The notes beneath the pieces are model-generated. The model made no database searches, was not told where the DNA came from, and saw only the letters and a list, made by a program, of their open reading frames with translations. 64,000 nt of DNA from contig JBHHVU010000008.1 of the NCBI GenBank assembly GCA_046754465.1, positions 17,214-81,213 of the forward strand, read 5' to 3'. This DNA comes from Nitrospinaceae bacterium. GTDB lineage: Bacteria > Nitrospinota > Nitrospinia > Nitrospinales > VA-1. The first letter of the stretch is position 1; every line of letters begins with the position of its first letter. The position numbers and the translations under genes were made by a program. Of the stretch, positions 26,389 through 41,306 are shown piece by piece.

Positions 26389-26648
26389 GAAAAAGTCTCC
26401 TCTAGGGCAAAAATCCTTTGTAAAAAATATTTAGACGGGAAATATGGGAAAGCGTTATATTTCTCATTGAAAAGTATGGGAAATTTTCTAAAATAAGCGG
26501 CTGATAAGGCTTATTTTAACACATATCAGCCCTTCCATAATATGATATTTCCCCTCTCGTCCGGGTTTTCCCGGACCGGACGCGGCCTACAGTCCGTTTT
26601 TCCCCCATTCCAGGGAGTTTGAGGTCCCGGGGACGCCCCCTTTGGAAA

Positions 26649-27563
26649 ATGAAATTCTTCGACCGAAAATATGATCCCACCCGCTTCGAGATCCTGGATA
26701 AGGCCCGGAGCCGGTTCAACGAAATCTACGTGATTCAAAATGGCTCCCGGCGAGAAATGTTCTTTAAGGGCGAGGGCAATTTTTATCTTCAAAGCAGTTT
26801 CGACCTGCGTCGGATGGAATCCCTGATACTGGTTTATTCCCGAATGATGCTGGCATCGCTTTTGTTTCGGCCTGCGCCGCGCCGGATTTTAATGATCGGC
26901 CTGGGCGGCGGCTCGATCGCGGACTGGCTCCACCAACGGTTTCCCGAAGGCCATCTCGATGTGGTGGAGGTGGATGAAAAAGTCGTCGAGTTCTGCGGAA
27001 AATATTTCTTTCTGAAGGAGACCGGGAATTTCAAGGTCCACGTGGGGGATGGACGCGTCTTCGTTCAGAATCAGCGTGGAAAGGATCCTTATGATCTCGT
27101 ATTGCTAGATGCCTTTAAAAGCGGTTCCATTCCTTTTCACCTGAAGACGTCGGAATTTTACGAGGAAATTCGGGAGATTCTTTCACCGGGCGGGGTGGTG
27201 GCATCCAATCTGTATGGCAAAAGCAACCCGTTGAAACCCAAGGATCGCAACACCTTTGCCCACGTTTTCCCACAGGTTTACTGCTTTCAGGACCCGGAAG
27301 CGGTGGCTACGGTGCTGGTGGCGGTGGATCAGGATAAACCCTGGCCGGGATCGGACCTCCGCAAAGCCGCCGGAGCCCAGCAAAGTTCGTTGCCCTTTTC
27401 CCCGGCCGATCTGGAGGCCATGTTCCAGCCCGGTATGTTCAAGGATGAAGCCTTGGGGATGTTTCGGGATGAGTTTTCGGGAAAAGATTTTATGCGGGTT
27501 GTTAAGGCGAATAACACCCGGTCCGGCGGCGATTCAACCTACCCGATCAAAAGTCATAACTGA
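26649..27563 (+). CDS. spermidine synthase-like class I methyltransferase-fold protein
   Basis: ILMIGLGGGSIADWL ... VVEVDEKVVEFC ... GDGRVFV ... YDLVLLDAF pattern of PABS/spermidine-synthase-like proteins. ATG 26649 is chosen. Confidence 0.6.
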   Translation: MKFFDRKYDPTRFEILDKARSRFNEIYVIQNGSRREMFFKGEGNFYLQSSFDLRRMESLILVYSRMMLASLLFRPAPRRILMIGLGGGSIADWLHQRFPEGHLDVVEVDEKVVEFCGKYFFLKETGNFKVHVGDGRVFVQNQRGKDPYDLVLLDAFKSGSIPFHLKTSEFYEEIREILSPGGVVASNLYGKSNPLKPKDRNTFAHVFPQVYCFQDPEAVATVLVAVDQDKPWPGSDLRKAAGAQQSSLPFSPADLEAMFQPGMFKDEALGMFRDEFSGKDFMRVVKANNTRSGGDSTYPIKSHN

Positions 27564-27577
27564 ATGCCGGGTTGACC

Positions 27578-30500
27578 TCAGGAAAAGTTTGGGACAGTAA
27601 GTTCAAGGGCTTGGATTCGACTGTTGTCGAAATCGGCGGCAAATAATAGGTTCCCATGGATGGATAATCCTCCAATCTTCCCGAACTGTCCCGCCCGTTT
27701 ACCAGGATTCCGGTAAATGGATACCACCTCCAGTTTCGAGTTGAGGTGAAGGATTTGATGGTACCAGTAATCCGTCGCGAAGATCCCATAGCCGGGATGG
27801 CGGGTCAGGAAATAGATTTCTTCGCACGCGAGACTTCCTTTATGGAGGCCGTTGATTAATCGGTGTTCCGAACTGAAATGCTTCAAAACATAGTTCGACC
27901 GGTCACTGACCAGGTACTCGCCGTCTTCCAGGCAGTACACGCTGACCGGCTCAAATAAATCCTCCGGCGCTTCCCCCCGCCGTTTTATGGAGCGGACAAG
28001 TTTCCCCTTTGAATCGTAGATTTGGATACGGTGATGATTGGGGTCCGCCGCCCAAACCCGGTTTTCCCTGTCGATGGAAAGGGAAAATATCGCCCCCAGC
28101 CTTTGTTCTGGTTCTTCCCGGTCTCCGAAAGACAGAACGAATTCCCCTTCGCGCGTAAATTTTTGGATGCGCGCGTTTTTTTCCTCCCCGACATAGATAA
28201 ACCCTTCACGGTCCAATTGAAGGCACGTTGGAAATCTGAAAAATCCCGGGGAGTTTCCCCAGCCCCCGAAGTGGGAAAGATAACCGCCCTCGGCAGAGAA
28301 CCGGTAAATTTGATGATGGTCGTAATCGGCAACGAGCAATTCCCCCTCTGGGGAATGAGCGATCCCATAAGGTTTCAAGAACTCCCCATGTCGCGGACCG
28401 TTTTTCCAGAATGAGAATTTGAATTTCAGCCCGGAGGAATTTCCGACGGGAAAGCCGCCGGTCTCCCCGGTCATTGGCCCGCATTCAAACAGCTTGTTCA
28501 CAAGGGCTCTGGCTTTGAACGCCCGCTCCAGACCGGATTCCAACTGTTCCAACGAGGCCTGGGTTTGGCCCAGTTGTTTCTGGGTTTCCATGAATTGATC
28601 CAGGTCGCCGGCGGACGGGGCCAGGTCCGTGGCTTCCAAAACCCCGGTCAACCGGGATACCTCAAAAACCCGAGTTTTTCGATCCCGGAGGTCTCCTTCG
28701 ATTTTTTCTTCCAGCTCCGATTGATGGGATTTTATTGCGGCAACCAAGGGTTCCACGGCGGAAGGGGGTTTGCTGTTTTTGCTTGAAATCAGCAGGGAGA
28801 AACCGAGGATCAGCCTGCAAAGGTTGTTGGCCTCATTGATTCCCAGGGTAAGGATCATCCGCCGTAGCAGGTTCATCTGAAATTCTAAAACGGCGATGTT
28901 GTTCTGAAGGGTGATCGGCGTTTTTTTGTCCTGGGGATTGACATGATTTAATTTGGCGTCCAGTTCCTGTTTTTGCCGGGTCAAGGTTTCCAATTGCCGG
29001 GAAATTTCCTGGTATTTGATTTCGTAAACCGTTTGATGATGCAAAATTTTCAGGAGCCGTTCGGCCCATTCCCCGCTCTGGTTTCCTATGGCCTTAAGGG
29101 GATACCCTTCGCCTCCGCAAACCAGTCTCGATTCATCTTTTTTGAGGAGCATCCCTTCGATCCGGACCGCGCGCGTTATATCTTCCAAATTCAATTCCTC
29201 CGAATCAAACTCGACGGGGGAAAAATCTTCGACCCCGATATCCCGCGTCCGGACAGGGTCCTGCGTATCCCAGCTGGCGATCCGGGTATCGGTCAGGTCT
29301 TTCAGCATGATCTCCAGGGAGGTGTGAAGCGGCCAATCTTCCTGAAACCCCAGCAACAATTTGGGAGGGGTTTCAGCACCCGGGGGGTCCAAGAACCCTC
29401 TCTGAAGGATCTTTTTTATTGTTGCCTCTTTGGGGAATTGAAGAGCCGCCCCTTTAAGAATACCCAGCAGGGTGCGCAGTTCGAACTGCAGGTGTTTGAG
29501 AACGTCCATCGCTCTGCGGTTGCCGTTGAACCGTGTGAGGAAGGTTTCCCATTTTTCCCGGTGGTCCGGCATCTCACCAAAAGCCTGCACCATGGCTTCC
29601 TCATTTTTTTCTCGTTCATCCATGATGCGAATCATGATTTGACAGAGGGAGGCGTACCGGTTTTCCATCGTTTGCAGGCACGGGGCGAGGCTGGCAGGGT
29701 CCCGCCCCGAGTTCAGGATATTGCCGAGGTATTCCGAAAACTTCTGGGCGGTTTTCCGGTAAAAATAGAACAGAACGCGAATTTCACGAAAAAGGGTTTT
29801 GTCGCGCTTCTCGGCCTCGAACAGCTCCCGGTTGAACTCCCGAGGGTCTCCCTTGTCTTCGAGAATCGATTGCTGTTCCGCGATCAAGCGGACGTTGTGT
29901 TCCCTCGCTGCCGCCTCCCATTTCCGGTGGCAATCGAGAACCGCCTGGCGGTCCGCGTCGAGGCGCCGGCCCAGAAGCTCCAGACCCTGGCGCGGCAAAT
30001 CCCCGGTCACGGCATCCTCCCCCCTGATGGCCCGGCGGCTGAAGTCCATGAGAAGGTCCACTGCGTCATGGCTGGGGACCTCCCCGCCGGTATTTTTCTT
30101 GGCGAGGGTCCGCGCCGCATTCTGCAAAGCACGCACCGCATTTGGGGTGTCCCCCTTTTCTTCCAGCAGCCGAGCCATCTGAAAGAGGAGTTCCCAGTTG
30201 CCGGGATCGTTCTGAATGCGCCGGTTGAGCAGGCTCTCCTGGGATTCCACCGGAGCCTGGAACTGAAGGATGTGCGTGTCGAATGTCAACCCCACGTGCA
30301 GGACTCCCCGGGGATCGATGGCTGTGAGACAGGGCGCTTGGATGAGCGCCGTCCCTTCCACCCCCCGCGAATCGAAAAGGAACCCTCCGTAGGAGGTGAA
30401 TCCCTGAATCCGGTCATTGTTGAGGTCGGCGACGTATAACAGATCGTTGGGACCCACGGCCACGCAAAGCGGATATTCAAACTGGGCCGGACCCGTTCCC

Positions 30501-31219
30501 CGTTCCCCGAAAGCCAGAACCTGGTTCCATTCCCGGTCGAATTTAACGATTCGGTGGTTGCCGCTGTCGGAAATAAAAAAGTTTCCCAGGCTGTCCCGGG
30601 CGATGGAAGTGGGAAATTCAAAAATCGGTGGAGCAAACAGGTGAGACGGCGTTTCAAAAATGCAAGCGAGTTGTTCCTCCAGGACCGTTCCGCGGGTTCC
30701 CACCCATCCCAGAGAGTCTCCGTCGGGACTGAAGAATTGAATCCGGTGGTTGTATCGCTCGACGACGATGAGCCGGCCGGAAGGATCGATGAGAAGGTCG
30801 TAAGGTTCGTTCAATTGGCCCCGTCCCTCGCCACAGGAGCCGAAGACGGCCAAGGGGTTTCCCTGCCGATCGAATTTTTGCACCCGGTGGTTCCAACTGT
30901 CCGCCACATAGATGTTGCCGTCCGCGTCTACGGCGGTTCCCTTCGGGTAATGGAGTTCGCCCGGTTTGCCGCCTTTCCCGCCAAAACACCGGATGAGCCG
31001 GTGATCCGCATCGTAAATTTGAATCCGGTGATTGAAATCGTCGGCGACGATCAGGTTCCCTTCCGGAGTAAAAGCGAAACCGGAGGGAGGAGACGGTTCC
31101 GTACCCGCCCCCTCCTGGGGGCGGAAGGAGTTTTCAAAATGAATGAGGGGTCCTGGATCCGTAAAGGACCGAATGGCTTGATCCAGGGATGAATCGGAAG
31201 ACGGAGTCATGCGGGGCAC
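27578..31219 (-). CDS. large cytoplasmic protein: N-terminal NHL beta-propeller, about 570-aa helical linker, C-terminal NHL beta-propeller
   Basis: NHL signatures in the N-terminal third (FNHRIQIYD, WNHRVQKFD, YNHRIQFFS, GNHRIVKFD, NNDRIQGF) and again in the C-terminal third (DHHQIYRF, KNARIQKFT, PNHHRIQIYD, SNYVLKHF, WYHQILHL, DNSRIQAL). No signal peptide. Start is GTG 31219 or ATG 31210. Confidence 0.8.
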   Translation of the reverse strand: MPRMTPSSDSSLDQAIRSFTDPGPLIHFENSFRPQEGAGTEPSPPSGFAFTPEGNLIVADDFNHRIQIYDADHRLIRCFGGKGGKPGELHYPKGTAVDADGNIYVADSWNHRVQKFDRQGNPLAVFGSCGEGRGQLNEPYDLLIDPSGRLIVVERYNHRIQFFSPDGDSLGWVGTRGTVLEEQLACIFETPSHLFAPPIFEFPTSIARDSLGNFFISDSGNHRIVKFDREWNQVLAFGERGTGPAQFEYPLCVAVGPNDLLYVADLNNDRIQGFTSYGGFLFDSRGVEGTALIQAPCLTAIDPRGVLHVGLTFDTHILQFQAPVESQESLLNRRIQNDPGNWELLFQMARLLEEKGDTPNAVRALQNAARTLAKKNTGGEVPSHDAVDLLMDFSRRAIRGEDAVTGDLPRQGLELLGRRLDADRQAVLDCHRKWEAAAREHNVRLIAEQQSILEDKGDPREFNRELFEAEKRDKTLFREIRVLFYFYRKTAQKFSEYLGNILNSGRDPASLAPCLQTMENRYASLCQIMIRIMDEREKNEEAMVQAFGEMPDHREKWETFLTRFNGNRRAMDVLKHLQFELRTLLGILKGAALQFPKEATIKKILQRGFLDPPGAETPPKLLLGFQEDWPLHTSLEIMLKDLTDTRIASWDTQDPVRTRDIGVEDFSPVEFDSEELNLEDITRAVRIEGMLLKKDESRLVCGGEGYPLKAIGNQSGEWAERLLKILHHQTVYEIKYQEISRQLETLTRQKQELDAKLNHVNPQDKKTPITLQNNIAVLEFQMNLLRRMILTLGINEANNLCRLILGFSLLISSKNSKPPSAVEPLVAAIKSHQSELEEKIEGDLRDRKTRVFEVSRLTGVLEATDLAPSAGDLDQFMETQKQLGQTQASLEQLESGLERAFKARALVNKLFECGPMTGETGGFPVGNSSGLKFKFSFWKNGPRHGEFLKPYGIAHSPEGELLVADYDHHQIYRFSAEGGYLSHFGGWGNSPGFFRFPTCLQLDREGFIYVGEEKNARIQKFTREGEFVLSFGDREEPEQRLGAIFSLSIDRENRVWAADPNHHRIQIYDSKGKLVRSIKRRGEAPEDLFEPVSVYCLEDGEYLVSDRSNYVLKHFSSEHRLINGLHKGSLACEEIYFLTRHPGYGIFATDYWYHQILHLNSKLEVVSIYRNPGKRAGQFGKIGGLSIHGNLLFAADFDNSRIQALELTVPNFS

Positions 31220-31344
31220 GGAGGAAATTTTTGGATGATTTTAGATACGTCGGCAAGTTCCGGGGGGAATTTAATCATAACCAATGGTTGATTACAATAG
31301 ATTTCGGCCTGTGCCGGCATAGCGAAGTCATTTGCCAATATAAA

Positions 31345-32871
31345 CTAAGGTGCGGCCGCCGTGGAAGCCTCAATTTCAAAATCCGGAACACCTTGATCCC
31401 ATTCACGGTTGTTTAAACAGGAATCCAAGTTGAATTTTTTATTCCCTAAAACGGGTTTGGGGTTTTCCTCCAGCATGAGCAAAAGGTAAAGATAGGCAAA
31501 AGCCATTTGGTGGTTAAAACAGTATTGCACAGCCAATTTCATGCAAGATAAGGCCTGAGTATAATTTTTTTGCATCAACCTTATTTCACCCAGGTGAAAA
31601 TAGGTTTTACCCCTGATTTCCGGGTTGATTTTTAAATTTAAAACTTTTGCAAACAATTTTTCCGCTTCACTTACCTTGTTGTGTTGTTTTAATTCGGAAG
31701 CAGTGTGGTAAAGGGAGATGAATTCAGGCGCTGCCCCCTTGTTTTCAGGATTATTGTATAAATCGGCGCAGGTTTGGGAAAATTGTTTGAGATTTATAGC
31801 CCAACAATTCTGACAGGCGTGCGGAATTTTTTCTCCGTTGGAACAGAAATGCGTATAGAGAAAATATCTCATGGGAAATGAATTCCAGGAATTGTTATTT
31901 GGGCTCTCCGAGATATTCATAGGCAGTTCGATAGGCCCGCAACAAATATTTGGTTTGTTTTTGCCATGAAAATTTATCCAGTTGTCCACATAAGGGCAGG
32001 TCCCGACGGAATCCTGCATTTTCTTTGTGTGTCCCAGGAACGTAATATGCATTTCCTCCCTATCCCACCGGGAAATGAGGGAATTTATTTTCCTCTTGGA
32101 TTCCTCAAAGTTGCTGAAAATGGATTTTTTGTACAGGTATTCACTAAAGGGAAGCATGGAAGACAACATGATATCCCTGATGCCCTTTCTTGATGCCGTT
32201 TGAATGACCTCATCCAGGTTATCAATATTTTCTCCGTTAATTGCGATGAGCAGCACCACAACAGGCAACGTGCTGTTTAATTCCCTTTTTTCTCTTTGAA
32301 CGATTTCAGCTTTTTCCCAAAATTTTTGGATATAGCTCTTTTCCCCGGCACCGTGCCCAAGGGTTGTTTCCCCGTCAAAAGAAAGGGTGAGAATTTTAAG
32401 TTTGGATTGAATAAGGGACCGGATCCTTTTTTTATTTAGAGGGACTCCGCTGGTATAAATTTGGGATTCCTTCTCTTTGATTTTCCCCAGAAAATAGGTC
32501 GTATGGGGTGACTCAAGGGTTTCCCCTGCACCCACAAAAATAATGTTGGACGCGGATTCCAACCAGGGGGACAATTGGTCGAATTGTTCTGGAAGAAAAT
32601 ACTTGTAATCATCAAACAAAAAAGTTCGATCATGAAAACCTGAATTGCACATCCTACATCCGAGGCCACAGGTATATGAAGAGTTGATGGTGATAAATTT
32701 CGGTTTCTCAGCCTCTAAGTCTTTGAGAGGAAGGGATTTGTTTTTCACCTTTTTCAAAAGATCCGAAAGAAGCCTTAAATCTCTCGAAGGATTTTTCAAG
32801 AGAAATCGAGCCCGGTCTAAATCGTCCGACAGAATGAAATGGGCCGACTCTTCTTTTAAGCTCTGAAACAT
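31345..32871 (-). CDS. radical SAM protein with a Cys-rich auxiliary segment and C-terminal TPR-like repeats (paralog B)
   Basis: CGLGCRMC (CxxxCxxC), VGAGETL, a downstream C-x17-CC ... C-x2-C-W cysteine constellation, and a C-terminal TPR-like helical region. ATG 32871 is preceded by AAAGGAA. Confidence 0.8.
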   Translation of the reverse strand: MFQSLKEESAHFILSDDLDRARFLLKNPSRDLRLLSDLLKKVKNKSLPLKDLEAEKPKFITINSSYTCGLGCRMCNSGFHDRTFLFDDYKYFLPEQFDQLSPWLESASNIIFVGAGETLESPHTTYFLGKIKEKESQIYTSGVPLNKKRIRSLIQSKLKILTLSFDGETTLGHGAGEKSYIQKFWEKAEIVQREKRELNSTLPVVVLLIAINGENIDNLDEVIQTASRKGIRDIMLSSMLPFSEYLYKKSIFSNFEESKRKINSLISRWDREEMHITFLGHTKKMQDSVGTCPYVDNWINFHGKNKPNICCGPIELPMNISESPNNNSWNSFPMRYFLYTHFCSNGEKIPHACQNCWAINLKQFSQTCADLYNNPENKGAAPEFISLYHTASELKQHNKVSEAEKLFAKVLNLKINPEIRGKTYFHLGEIRLMQKNYTQALSCMKLAVQYCFNHQMAFAYLYLLLMLEENPKPVLGNKKFNLDSCLNNREWDQGVPDFEIEASTAAAP

Positions 32872-32886
32872 AAAATTCCTTTCTTT

Positions 32887-34425
32887 TTAGGAGCATTTGC
32901 ACCGGACGTTTAAAAAAGGGTTCAAGGAGCTGAAGTCGATTTTCCCCGGCCTATAAGGGGAATGTTCGGCGAAGTGGTTGAGGTGGTCTGATTTTAAAGT
33001 TCTCCTTTTTTCTCTTTCTTTGGTTTTTCCTGTGAGTACCAGCAAAAGGTAAAGATAGGTAAAGGCCATTTGATGATCAAAGCAATTCCGCACCGTCAGC
33101 TTCATGTAGGACAAGGCTTCTGGATAGTTCTTGTTTTTTATCCGCAATTCTCCCAGATGAAAAAAAACTTTACCTTTAAGGGAAATATTCTGGGTGATAT
33201 CCAAAATCCTTGAGAACATCTCTTCAGCTTCCGTCTCACGGTTTTCTCTTTTTAAATTTGAGGCGGTTCGATACAGACTGAGAGTTTCCTGGAAGTTTTC
33301 CCCGCGGGTGAAAGATGTTGTTGCGCTCTCGCAATATTTTTGGGGGTCCATGATCCAACAGTTTTGACAGGCAAGGGGAAGTTTTGTTGGGTCGGAAGAA
33401 AAATGCAGGTATCGGAAATAGCGAAATGGAAAAGAATTCCAATACGTTTCGGGTGAAAGGTTCCGGGTTTCCAGGGGCAGGGTTATGGGCCCGCAACATA
33501 TCGAGGGTTGATTGCGGTTCAAGTTGAATATCAGATGTTTGTCTACGAAATAACATGTCTCCGTTCTTTCCTGCATTTGTTCTTCTTCAAATATTCTGAT
33601 ATGCATGCCCCGGGCATTTCCTTTTCTGATCGCCTTATTAATCTTTTCCCTTGAATCATTTAGATTAGAAAATATAGATTTCTCGAACAGGCGCTCGTTC
33701 CAGGGAATCATGAAAATCAAATCAACGATCCGGATTTCATGGGAATAAGCGGTTTGGAAAATATCATCCAAGTATTCCAGGTTTTCTCTATCCAAAGCAA
33801 GGGTCATCATTGCGATTGGATGATTGCAGGATAGTTCCCGTTTTGTTTCCTGGAAAACTTTCAATTTTTCCCAAAATTTTTGAATATATTTTTCATTTCC
33901 GGCGCCATGGCCAACAGCGGTTTTCCCATCAAAGGAGAAGTTGATATATTGAAGTTTGGATTGGATCAGCCTTATTGTTTTTTCCCTGTTTAGGGGGACC
34001 CCACTGGTGGTGATAAAAGAAATCTTGCCATTTAGTTGCTTAATAAATTCATAGAGGTATGGAGAGTCCAGCGTTTCTCCCATACCTACCAATACGACAT
34101 GTGATGCGGATTTTATCCAGGGGGATAATTGTTCAAACTCTTTTGGCTGCAGATATTTATAACCTGGAAAAAGGTAAGTGCGGTCCGAAAACCCCGCATT
34201 ACACATCTCACAACCGACCCCACAAGTATAAGAAACAGAAGTGCTGATGATTTTTGGGAGTGTCGCTCTGAAAATTTTTAGAGGGGCCTCTTTCCCGGTT
34301 GCCTTCATCAATAGGTCCCGCAGTAGGTTTAATCCGCGGGATTGCTGCCGGATAAGCCCGCGAGCCTTTTCCAGGTCATCCACAAATATGGATTGGATAA
34401 TCTCTTTTTTTATGTTGGGTGGCAA
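32887..34425 (-). CDS. radical SAM protein with a Cys-rich auxiliary segment and C-terminal TPR-like repeats (paralog A)
   Basis: CGVGCEMC, VGMGETL, C-x18-CC ... C-x2-C-W, and a TPR-like C-terminus. TTG start at 34425 is preceded by GAGGAA. About half the residues are identical to paralog B by eye. Confidence 0.8.
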   Translation of the reverse strand: MPPNIKKEIIQSIFVDDLEKARGLIRQQSRGLNLLRDLLMKATGKEAPLKIFRATLPKIISTSVSYTCGVGCEMCNAGFSDRTYLFPGYKYLQPKEFEQLSPWIKSASHVVLVGMGETLDSPYLYEFIKQLNGKISFITTSGVPLNREKTIRLIQSKLQYINFSFDGKTAVGHGAGNEKYIQKFWEKLKVFQETKRELSCNHPIAMMTLALDRENLEYLDDIFQTAYSHEIRIVDLIFMIPWNERLFEKSIFSNLNDSREKINKAIRKGNARGMHIRIFEEEQMQERTETCYFVDKHLIFNLNRNQPSICCGPITLPLETRNLSPETYWNSFPFRYFRYLHFSSDPTKLPLACQNCWIMDPQKYCESATTSFTRGENFQETLSLYRTASNLKRENRETEAEEMFSRILDITQNISLKGKVFFHLGELRIKNKNYPEALSYMKLTVRNCFDHQMAFTYLYLLLVLTGKTKEREKRRTLKSDHLNHFAEHSPYRPGKIDFSSLNPFLNVRCKCS

Positions 34426-34467
34426 AGAGGTTTCCTCTGGAATTTTTTTTTAGTTATTTTATCGAGC

Positions 34468-34495: not shown

Positions 34496-34577
34496 GGTAA
34501 AAAAAGAAAGATAATCCTGAGTATTGTAAACAGTCCTGGATGACCTTCCTGGGAGGAGAACCCAATCCCCCGCTGCT

Positions 34578-35636
34578 TCACATTCTGGTGACGACGCTGA
34601 GCATCCACAACCCCTGGGGATTGACGTGGGAGGAATATTTTTTGAATCCAAAACCGTGATAATTGAGAAAATGGATCAGGTCTTCCTCCTTGAACCACAG
34701 GCTCTCTCCCGTGACGCCCGACAGTCCGTCTTCCCAGCCCCCCTCGGGATAAACTTCGAACGTGTAGGTCCCGCTTTCCAGGGTCACGTCGCGGGTTTTG
34801 CGTCCGGGGGGGGAATGGTCAGAGGAGATATGACCGCACAGGACGATGGTATCGCTGTGTTCCATGCAGGTTTTCAGGAGCCACCAGGGCTTGTCCGAAT
34901 GATAGAACACCCCCGCGCAAAAAATGATGTCAATTTTTTCCGTCACCAGTTGGGGGAACAGGTGCATATCCCCCAGGATCAGTTCGTAGTTCCGCCAGTT
35001 GTAGAGGGACCGGATCACTGATGTCTTCGCGTAATTCAGAGGGCGGGCTTCCAGCCCGATGACTTTCCGGGGTTTCTGATCCATGATCATGACTGTGTCG
35101 TGCCCTTCAAAGGGTCCCAGTTCCAGAACCGTCTTGTTTTGAAAATCGACTCCGGGCGGGACCGGGTGCCAATAGGGCGATTCCCCCGCCAGGGGAGACA
35201 ACCCGCGACCGAAAAGAAAATCGTCGAACTGGAAATTTAGTGGATCGCGCAGTTCCTCGATCAGGGAATAAGTTCTCAGCAGGGTTTTCAGGTGGATTGT
35301 CCGGCAGGGGCACAGGGACTGGATTTTGAGAAAGGTGTCGTACAACTGGCTAGCCTCCGCGCTGGAAGCAATGACGACCACATCCTCCGCTTTCAATTCG
35401 GACAGTTCTGTCATGGGCCGGATGAGGTGACCCTCCAGGGTGTCTTTTTCACGATACGCATCCTCCTCGAAAACACCGATCAAGGGGATATCGGTATTTT
35501 CGAGGGCCATCAAAAAAAGCGACGCGGAAGCCTTCGTGCCCACCACGGCAATGCAGCCGTTCAACTGTTTGCACTGGGCATAAATACAGCGCCGTAAAAT
35601 CGCGTTATCGAGTGGGAGTTTTCCGGGATCTGTCAT
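34578..35636 (-). CDS. class I SAM-dependent methyltransferase with an N-terminal Rossmann-like domain (paralog B)
   Basis: Motif I VLELGPFEGHDT, IIFCAGVFYH, and an N-terminal IAVVGTKASASLFL...IPLIGVFEED domain. ATG 35636 lies 1 nt after the paralog A stop. Confidence 0.75.
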   Translation of the reverse strand: MTDPGKLPLDNAILRRCIYAQCKQLNGCIAVVGTKASASLFLMALENTDIPLIGVFEEDAYREKDTLEGHLIRPMTELSELKAEDVVVIASSAEASQLYDTFLKIQSLCPCRTIHLKTLLRTYSLIEELRDPLNFQFDDFLFGRGLSPLAGESPYWHPVPPGVDFQNKTVLELGPFEGHDTVMIMDQKPRKVIGLEARPLNYAKTSVIRSLYNWRNYELILGDMHLFPQLVTEKIDIIFCAGVFYHSDKPWWLLKTCMEHSDTIVLCGHISSDHSPPGRKTRDVTLESGTYTFEVYPEGGWEDGLSGVTGESLWFKEEDLIHFLNYHGFGFKKYSSHVNPQGLWMLSVVTRM

Positions 35637-35637
35637 C

Positions 35638-36702
35638 TTATTTTTTGGAGGAGGAATGGGTTTTTGTCACGACGCTGAAAATCCAGAGTCCGGTCCCTTC
35701 GATGACGGTGGAACCGTAGGATTCGTAATGGAATCCATAATAGTTCAGAAACCGGATCAGGTCTTTTTCAGCAAACCAAAGGCTGCAGGGAGTCAACCCC
35801 GATAAACCGTCGCCATCTTCCGGGTATTCCTCGAAATGATACGTTCCGCTTTCCAGGGTCACGTCGCGGGTTTTGCGTCCGGGGGGTGAATCCCCGGAGG
35901 CCACGTGGCCGCACAGAACAATGGTTTCACTGTGTTGCATACAAGTTTGCAGCAGCCACCAGGGTTTGTCCGAATGATAGAATACCCCGGAGCAGAAAAT
36001 AATGTCTATTTCATCTTTTATCAGGTGGGGGAAAAGATGCATGTCACCCAGAACCAACTCATGGTTTTGCCATTTGTAAAGAGACCGCATCACGGAGGTT
36101 TTGGCATAATTCAACGGCCGGGCTTCCAGACTGATCACTTTTTTGGGTTTCAGGCTCATGAGCATGACGGTGTTGTTTCCTTCAAAGGGTCCCAACTCCA
36201 GAACTGTCTTGTTTTGAAAATCGACCCCGGGCGGGACCGGGTGCCAATAGGGCGATTCCTCCTCCAGGGGAGACAAGCCGCGGCCGAAAAGAAAATCGTC
36301 GAACCGGAATATCAGTGGATCGCGCAGTTCCTCGATCAGGGAATAAGTTCCCAGCAGGGTTTTCAGGTGGATCGTCCGGCAGGGGCACAGGGAGCGGATT
36401 TTTTGGAAAGTATCGTACAATTCAGTCGCCTCGGCGCTGGAGGCGATGACGACCACATCCTCGGGTTTCAGCAGGGACAGTTCGTTCAGGGATCGAACCG
36501 CATGACCCTCGAAAAATTTTTGGTGACGGAACGCGTCGACCTCATACACCCCCAGGACTGGGATCTCGGTGCCGCCAAGGATCTTCAGCAGGAAAGACGC
36601 GGAGGATCGGGTGCCCACGACCGCGATGCGCGCGTTGTACTTCTTGCACTGCCGGTAAACCAGCCGCTCCAACCGATCTTGAACCTCCCGCCGGGATGCC
36701 AC
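35638..36702 (-). CDS. class I SAM-dependent methyltransferase with an N-terminal Rossmann-like domain (paralog A)
   Basis: Same architecture (VLELGPFEGNNT; IIFCSGVFYH). Start is set at GTG 36702 (SD GGGAGGA 10 nt upstream), giving 354 aa against 352 aa for paralog B. The 445-aa ORF-track version overlaps the upstream GT2 gene. Confidence 0.7.
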   Translation of the reverse strand: MASRREVQDRLERLVYRQCKKYNARIAVVGTRSSASFLLKILGGTEIPVLGVYEVDAFRHQKFFEGHAVRSLNELSLLKPEDVVVIASSAEATELYDTFQKIRSLCPCRTIHLKTLLGTYSLIEELRDPLIFRFDDFLFGRGLSPLEEESPYWHPVPPGVDFQNKTVLELGPFEGNNTVMLMSLKPKKVISLEARPLNYAKTSVMRSLYKWQNHELVLGDMHLFPHLIKDEIDIIFCSGVFYHSDKPWWLLQTCMQHSETIVLCGHVASGDSPPGRKTRDVTLESGTYHFEEYPEDGDGLSGLTPCSLWFAEKDLIRFLNYYGFHYESYGSTVIEGTGLWIFSVVTKTHSSSKK

Positions 36703-36719: not shown

Positions 36720-37658
36720 TCAATGAGTGATCATCAGTTTTTCGATCTCGGCATCGGGAACGGTCCTTGTCCTCTGGATGCGGTAGCGGCGCGCCAGCAG
36801 GGGAACGAGCTTCATCATGGCGGCGAACTTGCTTTTCAAGAGGACCGCGCCCTGCCCCCGGTAAGAAAAGTATTTGATGTCCGCTAGCTGGTGTTTCAGG
36901 ATGGTGAAGAAATATTTGAAGTACATTCCCAGGGACAAGTTTTTGATCAGGACATAAATATCGTTGCGCTTGCACAGGTAGACGTACCGGTCGCTATAGA
37001 GTCCCACCGTGGCCGTGCCGATGTGGTAGACCTTGGCTTGTGGCAAGTAGACGGCCTGGAATCCCTGGAGCTGACCGCGCATGTTCAGGTCCACGTCCTC
37101 GGCGAAGATGAAGAAATCCTCGTCGAAAACACCCACCGTGTCGAACAGTTCCCGGCGGTAGATTCCGGCCCCGGCGCAGGCGCCGAAAACGTATTCCTCC
37201 CGGTCGTACTGACCGGCGTCTTTTTCACCCTGCCCCCGCCCGCCGCCGGACGACCAGGCGTGGAACAGGTCGCCGGTGTTGTAAAAGGTGTCCCGTTGGT
37301 CCAGGAACATCATCTTGGTGGTTCCCATACCGCATTCCGGGTGCCGCTCCATGCCTTCGTAAAGCTGGGTGATCCAGCCGGGTTCCACCTCGATGTCGTT
37401 GTTGAGGAGGCAGATGTAATCCCCGCGTGCGGCCTGGATGCCCCGGTTGCAGGCCGTCGCGAACCCCATGTTCTCCGGCAGTTTGACCAGGCGGACCCAG
37501 GGGTATTCCTCCTCCACCAGTTCGCGGGATCCGTCCACCGAGCCATTATCCACCACGATCACTTCAAAAGCGCCGAAGGTGGACGCCGCGAGGGAATCCA
37601 GACACATCCCGATAAAACGGATTCCGTTCCAGTTGGGTACGATAACGCTGACTTTCAA
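36720..37658 (-). CDS. GT2 family glycosyltransferase
   Basis: VSVIVPNWNG...VIVVDNGSVDGS...NMGFATACNRG...LNNDIEV (GT-A fold, DxD-type). TTG start is preceded by AAGGAGG. Confidence 0.85.
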   Translation of the reverse strand: MKVSVIVPNWNGIRFIGMCLDSLAASTFGAFEVIVVDNGSVDGSRELVEEEYPWVRLVKLPENMGFATACNRGIQAARGDYICLLNNDIEVEPGWITQLYEGMERHPECGMGTTKMMFLDQRDTFYNTGDLFHAWSSGGGRGQGEKDAGQYDREEYVFGACAGAGIYRRELFDTVGVFDEDFFIFAEDVDLNMRGQLQGFQAVYLPQAKVYHIGTATVGLYSDRYVYLCKRNDIYVLIKNLSLGMYFKYFFTILKHQLADIKYFSYRGQGAVLLKSKFAAMMKLVPLLARRYRIQRTRTVPDAEIEKLMITH

Positions 37659-37695: not shown

Positions 37696-40131
37696 TTAAC
37701 AAGCTTCGGATGCCGGACGCTGTTCCGTCGCCGGGGCTTTTTCGTCCTCTGAGCGATCCCGTTGCGGGCGGGTCAGGAGATTCCTGGCGCCCTCATGAGA
37801 GGGGTCCAGTTTCAGGCATCGCCGGGCAAATTCTTTTTTTTGTTCGCCAGAGGACAACCGCGCCAGGCGAAACCAGGCCCCGGCGCGGATATGGCCGTAG
37901 GTGTCCGCCGAACGGGCGGCTTGCTCAAAAAGCGAGAAGGCCCTTTCGGGTTCGCCCATTCGTTCGAGCGCGGAGGCCCTGGCGTAGAGCAGCAGGGAAT
38001 TTTCCGGGTCCTGTTGTAAATAATGACCGAGGGTCTCGTGCTCCGGCCGTTGGTCCGCGTCCAGCCTGGCGAGGGCCACCGCCGCCTGCGTCTGCAGCCA
38101 TTCACGGTCTTTGCGGTTCCCGGTGTTGGCGGCTTCGGCGAATACGCGCCTCAGGCCTTCCCGGTCCTTCAATTCCGTCAACGATTCCATCAGGGATTGC
38201 CAGGCGTCGTGCCGGTTCGGAACCAGCGTCCGGAACCGTTCGAACCCCGCGGCCGCCTCCCGGTGGTTCCCGCGTTTCTGGTGGTGGAGGGCGGTCAGGT
38301 AGATCGTCTCCGTATTTTCCCCGAACCGCCGCGTCTCTTCCGCGAGTAAGTCCCCCGCCGTGTCCAGTTGCCCGAGCCTGATTTTCTGTTTGGCGAGCAT
38401 GAGGCGGACGTGCTCACAGAGAGGTTGCTCGTCGAGGGCCTTTTCAAAGGCGCGGGCGGCTTCTTCCGGCCGGTTGCCTTGATCGAGGATCTCCCCCATG
38501 TAGATGAGGCCCATCCAGTCATGCGGATTGAGCCGGACGAGTTTCCGGCATTCTTTCAGGGCGGTGGCGGGTTTTCCCCGCGCGAGGTCGGAGCGGTCGA
38601 TGCGGGGGGCGTGCCAGTCTCCCGCCGTCAACGCTTCCAGGATGCGCATCTTGTCTTTCCAGGGCAGGGAGAGGGGGTCCGTAGCGGCCGGGGCGCGTCG
38701 CGCCAGCCGATAGAGGCCAAACCGGGCGAGCACCGCTTTGACCGGTTCATATCCCAGGCCGGTCACTTCTTCCAGGAGCCCGAGGTCGAGGTCGGGAAAG
38801 GATTTTATGAGATAAACCGGTTTGTGGCGGACCAGTCCGCCGATGACGCTGTCAAAAAAGCCGGTCAGGGCCGGGGTGTCCCACGGGCCGATCGTATGAT
38901 GGAGAAAATTATCCGCGGCGGGCAGGTCCGTGTAGTGATAGAGCTGGGAAAAGGTTCCCCAGACGAAAATCCGTTCGCCGGACTCCCCGCGCCTCTTTAC
39001 CAGGCGTTTCAAAATTTTTCCCAGATGGGGAAGGTAAATATATTGGTCGAATTTTTCATAGCGCGCCAAGGTTTCGGGGTGGGCTGGCCGCAAGTAAAAA
39101 TCGCGAAGGCTGTAAAGGTTCCACAGCGTGAGTCCCAGAAAAACGGCGAAACCTCCCGCCGCGGCGGGTCCTCCCACCTGGTGCAGTCCGTCCATCGCCA
39201 GTCCGCCTCCCAGGGCCAGCAGGGCCAGCCAGGGAAGGTAATGATACCGGGAAAAACCCCGCTGGGCGAAAATCATGAACAAGGTGACCCCGGTGAAGGG
39301 AACGAACCAGATGCCATGGCCTCCCAGGAAAGAGGGGATCAAACCGGGGGCTCCGAGGACCCAGAGCGGAAGTGTTTGCAGGATCAGGTGGCGAATTTCA
39401 CGGGCCACGCTGAAGTACATGGACTTGGTGCGGGTCAACCGCAGGGTGGTGGCCATCCGAGTCCGCATTTGCGCGCGGGAGGCAGCATCCCAAAACCCCA
39501 GTTTCCATTCGATGCCGTTGGAAACGGTGAACGGCAGGCAGCAGGCCAGGATAAAAACGGCCATGGGTTGCAAACCCCATTGCAAGGCGATCACCGGGGT
39601 CAAGGCCGCGGCGTACAAGCCGGTGGTGTATTTGGGGATGGTGGCGAGGCCAAAGCACGCTCCGGCCCAGAACACGGCCTCGGGTCCCTGGGTCAAAAAA
39701 GCCAAACCCAGCAAGGTCCACGGAATGTAAAACTGCTCGTGATTGAAGGAACCCGCGGTGAGATCGGGAGAGGTCCCGTAACACGCGTGCAACAGACCCC
39801 CGCCCAAAGCCGCCCAGGGATTCTGCGTCATCGCCATCAGCGCACCGTAAATGACCAGGGAAGCGGCGACATGAAACACGGTTTGCAGGTGGCGGATTCT
39901 CCGCACCCCCCCGGCGGAGTTTCCGTACAGTTTGTCCAAAAGGAGCATCCGCCAGATGGGAATGCCGATGATCTGCAAATCCCGTTTCCATTGGAATCCC
40001 CGATCGGCGAACCGGGCCCGGTAGGTATAAATGGCGAAATCGTCGTCCAGGGGGAAATCCCGGAAAGGGAGGCGGCATGCCACGCCCGTCAAAATGATCA
40101 GGAGCGGAAAGGTGACCTGTAAGATATCCAT
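37696..40131 (-). CDS. polytopic membrane protein (GT-C-like) fused to C-terminal TPR repeats
   Basis: The first ~480 aa have many TM helices, with an acidic first-loop motif (FPLDDDFAIY). The last ~330 aa are TPR repeats. Confidence 0.55.
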   Translation of the reverse strand: MDILQVTFPLLIILTGVACRLPFRDFPLDDDFAIYTYRARFADRGFQWKRDLQIIGIPIWRMLLLDKLYGNSAGGVRRIRHLQTVFHVAASLVIYGALMAMTQNPWAALGGGLLHACYGTSPDLTAGSFNHEQFYIPWTLLGLAFLTQGPEAVFWAGACFGLATIPKYTTGLYAAALTPVIALQWGLQPMAVFILACCLPFTVSNGIEWKLGFWDAASRAQMRTRMATTLRLTRTKSMYFSVAREIRHLILQTLPLWVLGAPGLIPSFLGGHGIWFVPFTGVTLFMIFAQRGFSRYHYLPWLALLALGGGLAMDGLHQVGGPAAAGGFAVFLGLTLWNLYSLRDFYLRPAHPETLARYEKFDQYIYLPHLGKILKRLVKRRGESGERIFVWGTFSQLYHYTDLPAADNFLHHTIGPWDTPALTGFFDSVIGGLVRHKPVYLIKSFPDLDLGLLEEVTGLGYEPVKAVLARFGLYRLARRAPAATDPLSLPWKDKMRILEALTAGDWHAPRIDRSDLARGKPATALKECRKLVRLNPHDWMGLIYMGEILDQGNRPEEAARAFEKALDEQPLCEHVRLMLAKQKIRLGQLDTAGDLLAEETRRFGENTETIYLTALHHQKRGNHREAAAGFERFRTLVPNRHDAWQSLMESLTELKDREGLRRVFAEAANTGNRKDREWLQTQAAVALARLDADQRPEHETLGHYLQQDPENSLLLYARASALERMGEPERAFSLFEQAARSADTYGHIRAGAWFRLARLSSGEQKKEFARRCLKLDPSHEGARNLLTRPQRDRSEDEKAPATEQRPASEAC

Positions 40132-40346: not shown

Positions 40347-41306
40347 TCAGGAGGTCCCGGATTTTGGCACTTTCATGAAAAGAAGTTTCAATTTTAGGGA
40401 TACCGAGTCCTCCACCCCCCGCCATGGTCGGCCCGTCACCCGTTTGAACAGGGACCGGATGATGCCCATGCAGAAAGTCAGGCAGTAAAGGAACCGCAAA
40501 ATCACGTTCCAGCCTGGGGAATAATATTTGGAGAAAAAATAGAGATTGCTTTTGTAGGTTTCGAGGATTACCCTTTCCCTGATTTCGGGCTGATGCGTGC
40601 TTTTTCCCCGCAGATGTTTTACGGAAGTGTCCGGGAAAAAACAGATCTTTTGCCCCCGGCTCCGAGCCCGCCGGCAGAAATCGTCTTCCTCGTTGTATAA
40701 GAAATAATTTTCATCCAACAAGCCCACGGCCTTGTCGAAAAGTTTTCTCCGGATCACGAAACAGGCTCCGCCGACGACCTCCACTTCCCGGGTTTGGAGA
40801 GGTCCCATGCGCTTGAATTCATCGGCGGATGGATATTTTCCCAGAATCTTCAGGATCGCGTCGCGGGGCGTGTCTTCCCAAAGCCGCATGGAGCAGAGCC
40901 GGTCCCGGGAATCGATGATGGCCGGACTCAGGATGGAAAATTCCGGCCGGCTTCTCAGGAAGCGGATGATTTTTAAAAAGGAGTTTTCAACGAGTAGCGT
41001 ATCGGGGTTCAGTAAAACGATGAACTCCCCCCGCGAAAGGAGAATGGCCTGGTTGTTGGCGGCGGAAAACCCGCGGTTTTCGGTGTTCTCTATCAGGCGG
41101 ACTTCCGGGAAATGTTCTTTCACCGCCTCCACGCTGCCATCGGTGGAATGATTGTCCACCACGAAGATTTCGAAAGAAAGGTCCGGGGTGTGCTCATGAA
41201 CCGATCGCAGGCACTCGATCAAAATATCCCGGGTATTGAAATTGACGACGATGATGGACAGGTCCAGCGAGGGTGGGTGGGTGAATTTGCAGGGTCGGGG
41301 GGTCAA
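40347..41306 (-). CDS. GT2 family glycosyltransferase
   Basis: LSIIVVNFNT...IFVVDNHSTDGS...NRGFSAANNQ...LNPDT. TTG start. Confidence 0.85.
   Translation of the reverse strand: MTPRPCKFTHPPSLDLSIIVVNFNTRDILIECLRSVHEHTPDLSFEIFVVDNHSTDGSVEAVKEHFPEVRLIENTENRGFSAANNQAILLSRGEFIVLLNPDTLLVENSFLKIIRFLRSRPEFSILSPAIIDSRDRLCSMRLWEDTPRDAILKILGKYPSADEFKRMGPLQTREVEVVGGACFVIRRKLFDKAVGLLDENYFLYNEEDDFCRRARSRGQKICFFPDTSVKHLRGKSTHQPEIRERVILETYKSNLYFFSKYYSPGWNVILRFLYCLTFCMGIIRSLFKRVTGRPWRGVEDSVSLKLKLLFMKVPKSGTS

What the first reader, a model, noticed from the sequence alone, without database searches (positions are those of the whole stretch)
27578..31219. 1213-aa cytoplasmic protein with NHL propellers at both ends of a long helical spacer
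Five to six NHL blades are readable at each terminus, for example FNHRIQIYD, WNHRVQKFD and YNHRIQFFS at the N-terminal end and PNHHRIQIYD, KNARIQKFT and DNSRIQAL at the C-terminal end. They are separated by about 570 aa of predicted helical sequence in which I recognise no catalytic motif. There is no signal peptide or TM helix. Most bacterial NHL proteins I know of are secreted or periplasmic single propellers, so a dumbbell-like intracellular double propeller is unusual. It is the last gene of the co-directional GT/MT/rSAM array (125-nt gap), so it could be a scaffold or even the substrate of the TPR-bearing enzymes upstream.
Basis: partly seen in the sequence, partly recalled or inferred. 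Interest (0 to 1): 0.55.

Follow-up and report, generated by a model that had tools for sequence, protein, structure and literature searches.

The report
Nitrospinota-specific double NHL-propeller protein
This is a real, well-conserved 1,213-residue cytoplasmic protein found only in the marine nitrite-oxidising phylum Nitrospinota; it has two six-bladed NHL propellers around a helical core with no known relative, and it sits next to an ever-changing set of TPR-tagged modification enzymes, so it may be their common docking platform, although its function is untested.

Summary

- **The gene.** The ORF lies on the minus strand at 27578-31219. It encodes two six-bladed NHL propellers and a helical core of about 590 aa. 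AF2 gives pLDDT 88 and pTM 0.88.
- **Location.** Neither it nor the ten long homologues inspected has a signal peptide, and it has no TM helix.
- **Propellers.** They are closest to animal TRIM-NHL domains (27-34% identity, TM about 0.9).
- **Core.** The core is a folded domain, not a plain coiled coil. It has a TPR-like cap, two long four-helix bundles and a small insert. It has no homologue outside this family among 1.84 billion representative proteins, and no PDB fold match.
- **Distribution.** Every full-length member that carries an organism name is from Nitrospinota.
- **Neighbours.** The gene is the constant end of a hypervariable locus. That locus holds GT2, a PMT_2-like membrane GT with TPR, radical SAM enzymes (a Nitrospinota-restricted rSAM-TPR family, B12-rSAM, SPASM) and methyltransferases. 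Many of these enzymes carry TPR domains.
- **The window's rSAM pair.** It is a low-GC insertion, and eight of the relatives' loci examined have no rSAM. Even so, rSAM, MT, GT or TPR genes still flank the gene in six of seven rearranged contexts.

**Best reading (about 0.35):** a cytoplasmic hub for the TPR-tagged enzymes. Rivals are substrate, unrelated binding protein, enzyme, and exported protein. This is a new variant of a known kind and is moderately interesting.

The parts
27578..31219 (-). Complete CDS of the double-NHL protein: 1213 aa from GTG, or 1210 aa from Met4 in the NCBI model. The stop codon is at 27578-27580.
   Evidence: P0001, 100% identical, Nitrospinaceae MAG ACE5E9_03685
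31142..31219 (-). Short soluble N-terminal tail (aa 1-26). It is a truncated version of the 50-80-aa helical N-terminal extension seen in longer homologues. It holds no signal peptide.
   Evidence: the first 9 model residues (ORF aa 14-22) have pLDDT below 50
30257..31141 (-). N-terminal six-bladed NHL beta-propeller (aa 27-321). It is the most conserved part of the protein, with mean column conservation 0.72.
   Evidence: Pfam NHL; AF2 strands; Foldseek match to TRIM-NHL, TM 0.88-0.91; conservation
30599..30700 (-). Family-specific insertion at the start of blade 4 (aa 174-207, GTRGTVLEEQLA...FEFPTSIA). It contains a short helix and several invariant residues. The FEFPT motif is kept even in the most diverged member (L087).
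30029..30241 (-). TPR-like cap of short helix pairs (aa 327-397). It is the least conserved part (0.39).
   Evidence: AF2; weak Pfam TPR_17 hit at aa 335-361, E 0.0077
29438..29998 (-). First bundle of four long helices, 40-46 residues each (aa 408-594).
   Evidence: AF2 helices H395-440, 451-490, 495-536 and 540-581 in model numbering. It is not detectably homologous to bundle 2.
29087..29425 (-). Small mixed alpha/beta sub-domain (aa 599-711) with a conserved motif that reads SPVEFDSE in the window (consensus F.PV.FDSE).
28493..29077 (-). Second bundle of four long helices, 40-47 residues each (aa 715-909).
   Evidence: AF2 H702-745, 753-799, 807-852 and 857-896 in model numbering
28805..28930 (-). 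The most conserved stretch of the central domain (aa 764-805, DKKTPITLQNNIAVLEFQMNLLRRMILTLGINEANNLCRLILG). D, F, R and N are invariant here. It is a candidate binding site.
   Evidence: invariant and near-invariant columns
28433..28477 (-). Disordered 15-residue linker (aa 915-929) between the helical core and the C-terminal propeller.
   Evidence: pLDDT below 50 at model residues 902-916
27602..28426 (-). C-terminal six-bladed NHL beta-propeller (aa 932-1206). It is homologous to the N-terminal one but less conserved (0.59).
   Evidence: (hhalign P1 against P2, E 3e-43)
31220..31344 (-). 125-nt intergenic gap upstream of the gene. Relatives also have a gap here, 133-520 nt. No sigma-70-like consensus was found on this strand.
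31345..34425 (-). Two tandem paralogous radical SAM genes (508 and 512 aa, 47% identical). Each has CxxxCxxC at residue 68 and a second Cys cluster; a TPR tail was detected in the 508-aa copy. The pair forms a low-GC inserted cassette (0.41-0.44 against 0.52-0.63 in the flanks). The family is restricted to Nitrospinota.
34578..36675 (-). Two tandem CmoB-like class I methyltransferase genes (73% identical). The upstream copy probably starts about 100 codons inside the listed ORF.
36720..37658 (-). GT2 glycosyltransferase. It is the conserved upstream neighbour in Nitrospinaceae and Nitrospina loci (72-83% identity).
37696..40131 (-). 811-aa protein. The N-terminal ~340 aa hold about 9-10 hydrophobic helices with a DDD motif after helix 1 and are homologous to a PMT_2 (GT-C) glycosyltransferase. 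The C-terminal part is a TPR domain (aa ~514-775).
   Evidence: PMT_2, E 0.01; aa 6-667 align to the L087 PMT_2-TPR protein, E 1.5e-44
40347..41306 (-). First GT2 glycosyltransferase of the array, divergent from prfA.
26619..27563 (+). Convergent spermidine-synthase-like gene (class I MT fold) that ends 14 nt from the NHL stop. It is conserved at this position in 19 Nitrospinaceae/Nitrospina loci and displaced by about 2.5 kb in one more (L026).
   Evidence: NF037959, 66.8 bits against a cut-off of 40

Best explanation
The protein is a Nitrospinota-specific cytoplasmic scaffold.

**Anatomy.** Two TRIM-type six-bladed NHL propellers act as ligand-binding platforms. A family-specific ~590-aa helical core holds them in a defined geometry. 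The core has a TPR-like cap, two long four-helix bundles and a small alpha/beta insert.

**Context.** The protein is the one constant gene product at the end of a hypervariable tailoring locus. The enzymes in that locus change from genome to genome: radical SAM with an auxiliary cluster, B12-radical SAM, several methyltransferase families, GT2, GT1 and a PMT_2-like membrane GT. Many of them have acquired TPR domains independently.

**Proposed mechanism.** The NHL protein is the shared docking hub. The cytoplasmic TPR-tagged enzymes bind to it, which assembles whichever tailoring set a lineage carries. This probably happens near the membrane, where the GT2 and PMT_2-like enzymes build and transfer a (methylated) glycan.
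- The highly conserved N-terminal propeller would hold the constant partner.
- The less conserved C-terminal propeller and helical core would hold the lineage-specific partners.

**Shown:** the anatomy, the cytoplasmic prediction, the phylum restriction and the genomic association.
**Inferred:** physical docking, the hub role, and the glycan nature of the pathway.
For: **Anatomy and confidence.**

**No export signal.** None in the protein or in ten long homologues.

**Core restricted to this family.** The central domain is found only in this architecture among 1.84e9 representative proteins (45 hits, all the same family or fragments of it).

**Conserved position.** The gene sits at the end of the locus prfA<-|GT2, PMT_2-like-TPR, GT2, [cassette], NHL, <-SpeE-like in about 20 loci.

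**Variable cassette with a constant theme.**
- B12-rSAM, with an MT24 gene beside it where that was checked (L011, L022), in L011, L014, L019, L021, L022 and L028.
- rSAM-SPASM plus rSAM-TPR in L007.
- B12-rSAM-TPR in L004 and L020.

**TPR fused to unrelated enzymes.** rSAM (window), B12-rSAM (L004, L020), GT1 (L004), GT2 (P0113 contig, L086), MT24 (L031) and PMT_2 (L087, window).

**The association survives rearrangement.**
- L016: rSAM upstream and YfhO downstream.
- L030: GT2 and rSAM downstream.
- L031: convergent MT24-TPR.
- L018: MT24. L006: FtsJ-like MT.
- L087: convergent PMT_2-TPR plus two rSAM-TPR genes beside a very diverged member.

**Partner family.** The rSAM-TPR family is itself restricted to Nitrospinota and is usually on NHL-bearing contigs.

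**Known behaviour of the fold.** TRIM-type NHL propellers are known protein- and RNA-binding platforms. This is established knowledge; the structural match is.
Against: - No physical interaction was tested or modelled.
- By analogy with PMT, ArnT and TMTC enzymes, the TPR domain of the PMT_2-like protein is expected on the periplasmic side. A cytoplasmic hub could not reach it there.
- The flanking housekeeping genes (prfA, PEPCK, pdxA, ksgA) are also syntenic. Part of the association within Nitrospinaceae could therefore be plain collinearity.
- The gene is always preceded by a gap of at least 125 nt and may be transcribed on its own.
- One rearranged context (L017) has no such enzyme next to it, only an ankyrin-repeat protein.
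- One rSAM-TPR homologue (L085) lies away from any NHL gene.
- The N-terminal propeller is strongly acidic (net charge -17 over 330 aa). This gives no clue to a TPR-binding motif, and no conserved terminal peptide motif was seen.
Confidence: 0.35

Rival explanations
1. The NHL protein is the substrate, not the scaffold. The TPR domains of the rSAM, MT and GT enzymes would recognise it as OGT, SPINDLY and TMTC recognise their protein substrates, and it would be methylated, cross-linked or glycosylated.
For: - The rSAM-TPR enzymes carry a second Cys cluster. Their closest matches are protein- or peptide-modifying maturases (W_rSAM_matur, rSAM_Geo_metal, PqqE, twitch).
- Their only constant, family-specific genomic partner is the NHL gene.
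Against: - Eight loci have the NHL protein without any rSAM.
- No residue in the NHL proteins, Cys included, tracks the presence of the rSAM-TPR genes.
- Enzyme content varies as in glycan-tailoring cassettes rather than as a dedicated maturase would.
- The very high conservation of the N-terminal propeller does not single out a modification site.
Confidence: 0.2
2. The protein is functionally independent of its neighbours. It would be a cytoplasmic protein- or RNA-binding regulator or organiser that uses TRIM-like NHL platforms, and it sits next to a variable glycan locus only because gene order is conserved in this part of Nitrospinota genomes.
For: - It has its own upstream gap of 125 nt or more in every genome checked.
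- The surrounding unrelated housekeeping genes are equally syntenic.
- The propellers are 27-34% identical to the NHL domains of RNA-binding TRIM71 and Brat and of TRIM2, TRIM3 and Thin.
- L017 has no tailoring enzyme next to the gene.
Against: - Six of seven rearranged contexts still place an rSAM, MT, GT or TPR gene directly beside it. This includes a very diverged member in a convergent arrangement.
- The N-terminal propeller is strongly acidic, unlike the basic RNA-binding faces of Brat and TRIM71 (established knowledge).
Confidence: 0.2
3. One or both propellers are enzymes acting on the product of the locus. Possible activities are a lyase, lactonase or esterase, as in PAL, SMP-30/SGL, Vgb lyase or phytase-like propellers. 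The helical core would serve oligomerisation.
For: - There are partial Pfam hits to SGL (44 bits), Phytase-like, DUF5128 and Vgb_lyase, and a PDB hit to PAL.
- The N-terminal propeller is extremely conserved, with many invariant residues and a family-specific conserved insertion.
Against: - Apart from the family-specific blade-4 insertion, nearly all invariant residues are the canonical structural NHL positions (P-x-G, D, N-H-R-[IV]-Q, G).
- The enzyme-family hits cover only one or two blades and reflect the shared repeat.
- The best structural matches are non-catalytic TRIM-NHL domains.
Confidence: 0.12
4. The protein is exported by a non-classical route and is an envelope or surface glycoprotein. 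It would be the acceptor of the PMT_2-like/TPR glycosyltransferase.
For: - Strain-variable GT, MT and rSAM cassettes are typical of surface-glycan loci.
- By family knowledge, the PMT_2-like enzyme should act on the periplasmic side.
- Most characterised bacterial NHL propellers are extracytoplasmic.
Against: - No Sec, Tat, lipoprotein, PEP-CTERM or other sorting signal is present in the window protein, and no N-terminal signal peptide or lipobox in the ten long homologues inspected.
- High sequence conservation is atypical of exposed surface proteins.
- No secretion-system genes are consistently nearby.
Confidence: 0.05

Closest known systems
Metazoan TRIM-NHL proteins (TRIM71/LIN-41, TRIM32/Thin, TRIM2, TRIM3, Brat, Mei-P26)
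   Same: Both have a six-bladed NHL propeller. Sequence identity is 27-34%, TM-score 0.87-0.91 and rmsd 2.4-2.9 A. In both, the propeller is attached to a long helical element and works in the cytoplasm as a binding platform.
   Different: This protein has no RING, B-box or filamin domain. It has two propellers in one chain, flanking a folded helical-bundle domain rather than a dimeric coiled coil. It is bacterial, and its N-terminal propeller is acidic.
Bacterial single-propeller NHL proteins (PknD sensor domain, ScyF, COG3391/'YncE-like')
   Same: They share the NHL repeat. The COG3391 annotation 'DNA-binding beta-propeller fold protein YncE' is what JGI gives the family.
   Different: Those proteins are extracytoplasmic single propellers with signal peptides, TM anchors or PEP-CTERM. 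The ScyF model scores 234.7 against a cut-off of 350. This protein has no export signal, two propellers and a unique core. The nearest non-family hits in genomes are short single-propeller genes of Chloroflexota and methanogens.
TPR-guided glycosyltransferases (OGT, SPINDLY, TMTC1-4; bacterial PMT_2/GT-C proteins with TPR)
   Same: The upstream 811-aa protein combines a PMT_2-like membrane domain with a TPR domain. The logic of TPR-mediated partner or substrate selection would apply to the locus.
   Different: This comparison concerns the neighbours, not the NHL protein itself. No such system is known to use a double-NHL partner, and here TPR domains are also fused to radical SAM enzymes and methyltransferases.
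Beta-propeller/alpha-solenoid membrane-coat-like proteins (protocoatomer; PVC bacteria)
   Same: Both combine a beta-propeller with a large all-helical domain.
   Different: The order here is propeller-helical-propeller. The helical part is long four-helix bundles, not a solenoid. Foldseek matches to nucleoporin, IFT and coat structures have TM <= 0.2.

Membership tests
NHL repeat family (Pfam PF01436) | Multiple ~40-residue NHL repeats scoring above the Pfam gathering threshold | tested here: met
   E 5.9e-54, 178 bits against a cut-off of 20
NHL repeat family (Pfam PF01436) | The repeats fold into a six-bladed beta-propeller | tested here: met
   The AF2 model has 6 x 4 strands at each end with pLDDT mostly above 90. 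Foldseek TM is 0.87-0.91 to solved NHL domains.
TRIM-NHL proteins | [quoted passage not shown] | tested here: not met
   No RING or B-box Pfam hit at E <= 0.01. The region before the first propeller is only 26 aa.
ScyF (NF035926, scytonemin NHL/PEP-CTERM protein) | Score above the NCBIfam equivalog cut-off, and a PEP-CTERM sorting tail | tested here: not met
   234.7 bits against a cut-off of 350. The C-terminus ...ELTVPNFS has no PEP-CTERM motif or TM helix.
Secreted or periplasmic NHL/YncE-like propellers | N-terminal Sec or Tat signal peptide, or a lipobox | tested here: not met
   There is no hydrophobic N-terminal segment, and the ORF cannot be extended upstream. Ten long homologues have soluble helical extensions.
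Catalytic six-bladed propellers (PAL, SMP-30/SGL, Vgb lyase) | Full-length match to the enzyme family, and conserved metal or catalytic residues in the central pocket | tested here: inconclusive
   Only partial matches were found: SGL covers 81 of 246 profile positions, and Vgb_lyase scores 22 bits against a cut-off of 50.
Membrane-coat-like (beta-propeller + alpha-solenoid) proteins | An alpha-solenoid of stacked helix pairs following the propeller, structurally similar to coat or nucleoporin proteins | tested here: not met
   The central model consists of long four-helix bundles. The best Foldseek E-value is 5.7e-3 and TM <= 0.28, with only generic helical repeats matched.
Nitrospinota double-NHL family (defined here) | NHL propeller, ~590-aa helical core homologous to window aa 326-920, then NHL propeller, 1140-1270 aa in all | tested here: met
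   More than 120 clusters cover 85-100% of the query, nearly all at least 94%. The central-domain HMM matches 22 translated loci at E <= 1e-105. L030 and L031 match weakly but collinearly. L087 shares only the architecture and the FEFPT motif.

The most novel reading that the evidence does not exclude
Nitrospinota would have a phylum-specific way of organising tailoring enzymes. A cytoplasmic NHL-helical-NHL hub would be recognised by TPR 'tags' fused to otherwise unrelated radical SAM enzymes, methyltransferases and glycosyltransferases. Lineages could then swap enzymes in and out of one assembly platform. This would be a modular recruitment system with no described bacterial counterpart, built around a helical domain of a new fold.
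Probability: 0.2. Interest if true: 0.75.

Novelty: new variant of a known kind. Interest (0 to 1): 0.5.

Why it matters
Nitrospinota are the main nitrite oxidisers of the ocean, and very little of their lineage-specific biology is understood.

This family is one of the largest conserved proteins restricted to the phylum. Its central domain has no homologue or fold match elsewhere. It marks a locus whose enzyme content turns over rapidly between close relatives, which is the signature of a selected envelope or modification trait.

If the hub idea holds, it would show a new way in which bacteria recruit interchangeable radical SAM, methyl- and glycosyl-transferases through TPR domains. It would also give a bacterial function for TRIM-type NHL propellers. 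If the idea fails, the protein remains a well-defined, structurally tractable phylum marker of unknown function.

Tried and rejected
**Searches that found nothing**
- Central region against PDB sequences. The single sequence gave only dynactin-2 at E 0.03. A 21-sequence profile gave nothing better than E 0.36.
- Foldseek of the central model against the PDB gave only generic helical repeats.
- Literature searches on Nitrospina plus NHL or propeller, and on NHL plus rSAM, TPR and GT, found nothing on this family.

**Ideas tested and dropped**
- The two helical bundles as an internal duplication: no similarity (hhalign probability 0.1).
- An rSAM target residue in the NHL proteins: no column, Cys included, separates rSAM-linked members from rSAM-free members beyond phylogeny.
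- The 367-aa minus-strand ORF at 41457-42560 as part of the array: it is spurious, and the real gene there is prfA on the plus strand.
- The rSAM pair as a universal partner: eight loci lack any rSAM.
- Membrane-coat-like, ScyF, YncE and TRIM membership: see the membership tests.

Full report
**1. The observation**

The ORF exists at exactly 27578-31219, but on the minus strand. Pfam NHL scores E 5.9e-54.

The ORF already begins at the first possible start codon after the upstream stop, so no hidden signal peptide can be added. The highest 19-residue hydropathy mean is 1.05, far below a TM helix. The identical protein is annotated as a hypothetical protein, ACE5E9_03685, of a Nitrospinaceae MAG. 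The 125-nt gap to the co-directional radical SAM gene is correct.

**2. Anatomy**

I aligned 54 full-length homologues (A1) and predicted residues 14-1213 with AlphaFold2. The model has mean pLDDT 88.3 and pTM 0.88.
- Each end is a six-bladed, four-stranded propeller closed by an N-terminal strand: ORF aa 27-321 and 932-1206.
- Between them lies an all-helical region (aa 327-909). It has four parts: short TPR-like helix pairs; four helices of 40-46 residues; a small helix/strand sub-domain; and four more helices of 40-47 residues.
- A 15-residue disordered linker precedes the second propeller.
- A separate model of aa 326-920 gave the same picture (pLDDT 88.6, pTM 0.86).
- The high pTM of the full model argues for a fixed arrangement rather than a floppy dumbbell.

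Conservation falls in this order: N-propeller 0.72, C-propeller 0.59, helical bundles 0.50, middle insert 0.44, TPR-like cap 0.39.

The two propellers are homologous to each other (hhalign E 3e-43). The two bundles are not detectably related.

The centre holds invariant residues. They are concentrated in DKKTPITLQNNIAVLEFQMNLLRRMILTLGINE (aa 764-796).

**3. What the parts resemble**

The propellers are closest to metazoan TRIM-NHL domains.
- The profile against PDB sequences gives E 7.5e-100 for Drosophila Thin, followed by TRIM71, TRIM3, TRIM2 and Brat.
- Foldseek gives TM 0.87-0.91, rmsd 2.4-2.9 A and 27-34% identity for Thin, TRIM71, TRIM2 and TRIM3; Brat is lower at TM 0.80-0.83.
- There is no RING or B-box.

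The central region has no relative.
- An exhaustive phmmer search of 1.84 billion representative proteins found 45 hits. All are the same architecture or fragments of it.
- PDB sequence searches were negative, both with the single sequence and with a profile.
- Foldseek against the PDB returned only generic helical repeats, with TM <= 0.28 and no E below 5e-3.

**4. Distribution**

More than 120 clusters at 90% identity cover at least 85% of the protein (nearly all at least 94%), at 38-51% identity. Every cluster that carries an organism name is Nitrospinota.

In one genome per GTDB species, the full-length matches (L005-L031) are all Nitrospinota or unnamed. From L032 onward the hits are short single-propeller NHL genes of Chloroflexota, methanogens and others.

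Two deep branches keep the architecture although the centre is barely or no longer detectable by HMM: L030/L031, and the partial L087 protein.

Ten longer homologues have a soluble helical N-terminal extension and no signal peptide or lipobox. So the family is predicted to be cytoplasmic.

**5. Genomic context**

In about 20 Nitrospinaceae and Nitrospina loci the order is: prfA (divergent), [GT2], ~810-aa TPR protein, GT2, a variable cassette, the NHL gene, a convergent spermidine-synthase-like gene, then PEPCK, pdxA and ksgA.

The content of the cassette differs between loci.

| Loci | Cassette content |
|---|---|
| L001, L002, L003, L005 | nothing |
| L012 | one methyltransferase |
| L011, L014, L019, L021, L022, L028 | a 504-aa B12-radical SAM gene; an MT24 gene follows it in L011 and L022 |
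| L007 | rSAM-SPASM plus an rSAM1-like gene |
| window | two CmoB-like MTs plus two rSAM-TPR genes |
| P0113 contig, L020, L086, L004 | larger sets |

In the window, the rSAM pair has GC 0.41-0.44 against 0.52-0.63 around it, so it is an insertion. The MT pair (73% identical) and the rSAM pair (47% identical) are tandem duplicates.

The ~810-aa 'TPR protein' has about 9-10 hydrophobic helices and a DDD motif after the first one. It has a weak PMT_2 hit (E 0.01). It aligns over aa 6-667 (E 1.5e-44) with a protein in L087 that has a confident PMT_2 hit plus TPR. So it is a GT-C-type membrane glycosyltransferase with a TPR domain.

**6. Is the neighbourhood meaningful?**

Two facts argue that it is more than collinearity.

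First, in contexts where all other synteny is lost, enzymes of the same kinds are still adjacent:
- L016: an rSAM 41% identical to the window's, upstream, and YfhO-type GT-C proteins downstream.
- L030: GT2 and rSAM.
- L031: a convergent MT24-TPR.
- L018: MT24.
- L006: an FtsJ-like MT.
- L087: two rSAM-TPR genes, a sulfotransferase-like gene and PMT_2-TPR, convergent on a very diverged family member.
- Only L017 lacks them.

Second, the rSAM-TPR family of the window is itself restricted to Nitrospinota. It has 40 hits at E <= 1e-10. Judging by matching contig lengths, seven of the 39 homologues appear to lie on NHL-bearing contigs, and L086 and L087 (shown directly) add two more; one exception is L085.

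TPR domains are fused to at least six unrelated enzyme types in these loci: rSAM, B12-rSAM, GT1, GT2, MT24 and PMT_2. This suggests a common binding partner, and the NHL protein is the constant gene.

Against this:
- Eight loci have no rSAM.
- The gene always has its own upstream gap.
- Housekeeping neighbours are equally syntenic.
- By family knowledge, the PMT_2-linked TPR should be periplasmic.

**7. Mechanism**

I commit to a cytoplasmic hub or adaptor for the TPR-tagged tailoring enzymes, at about 0.35. The anatomy, location, distribution and association are shown. The docking itself is inferred.

| Rival reading | Confidence | Main point for or against |
|---|---|---|
| Substrate of those enzymes | 0.2 | No residue tracks rSAM presence, and many members lack rSAM |
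| Independent TRIM-like protein- or RNA-binding factor | 0.2 | The acidic N-propeller argues against RNA binding |
| A propeller enzyme | 0.12 | Only partial matches to SGL, PAL and Vgb; invariant residues outside the blade-4 insertion are the structural NHL positions |
| Non-classically exported glycoprotein | 0.05 | No sorting signal found |

**8. Novelty and verdict**

The repeat type is ordinary. The double-propeller architecture, the family-exclusive helical core, the phylum restriction and the link to a TPR-decorated variable enzyme locus are not described in the searched literature.

I rate it a new variant of a known kind, with interest 0.5.

Noticed in passing
window 41457-42560 (-) versus 41556-42593 (+): The 367-aa minus-strand ORF that seems to extend the array has no family hit. 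The overlapping plus-strand ORF is peptide chain release factor 1 (PCRF E 4e-57, RF-1 E 1e-44). The array therefore starts at the GT2 gene at 40347-41306, divergent from prfA.
   Followed up: yes
window 37696-40131 (-): The '811-aa TPR protein' is a multi-helix membrane protein homologous to PMT_2 (GT-C) glycosyltransferases, with a C-terminal TPR domain. This is a bacterial counterpart of TMTC-like TPR-guided glycosyltransferases. The side of the membrane that holds the TPR domain is unresolved.
   Followed up: partly
window 31000-34500: The two rSAM-TPR genes form a sharp low-GC block (0.41-0.44 against 0.52-0.63). This is consistent with recent acquisition of the cassette from another Nitrospinota lineage.
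   Followed up: partly
window 31345-34425 (-): The rSAM-TPR family (~500 aa) has CxxxCxxC at residue 68, a second Cys cluster at about 291-368 and a TPR tail. It appears restricted to Nitrospinota. Its closest curated models are metalloenzyme or peptide maturases, all far below their cut-offs. It is an uncharacterised radical SAM family in its own right.
   Followed up: partly
L086 680-2651: In one Nitrospinaceae relative the locus contains three tandem paralogous 195-aa genes. Each has an N-terminal signal/anchor-like hydrophobic segment and a beta-rich C-terminal domain. They are possible exported substrates of the glycosylation enzymes. The window has no counterpart.
   Followed up: no
L016 4084-9698: In a CG11 Nitrospinae MAG the rSAM gene next to the NHL gene is preceded by two sulfatases and a type I phosphodiesterase. 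This raises the possibility that this rSAM subfamily matures sulfatase-type enzymes (anSME-like) in some lineages.
   Followed up: no
window 44547-51478: A second envelope-glycosylation cluster lies a few kb away. It holds a 662-aa protein with 11 TM-like peaks and no family hit, an LPG_synthase_TM protein, GT1, GT2 and a PMT_2 protein.
   Followed up: no
window 26619-27563 (+): A spermidine-synthase-like gene converges on the NHL gene with only 14 nt between the stop codons. It is conserved at that position in 19 loci, and displaced by about 2.5 kb in one more (L026). In a divergent lineage (L031) an MT24-TPR methyltransferase takes the same position.
   Followed up: partly
L001 5855-6205; L002 4874-5734: Small genes for hydrophobic membrane proteins (98-116 aa) lie between the first GT2 and the PMT_2-like gene in two complete genomes. 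The window lacks them.
   Followed up: no
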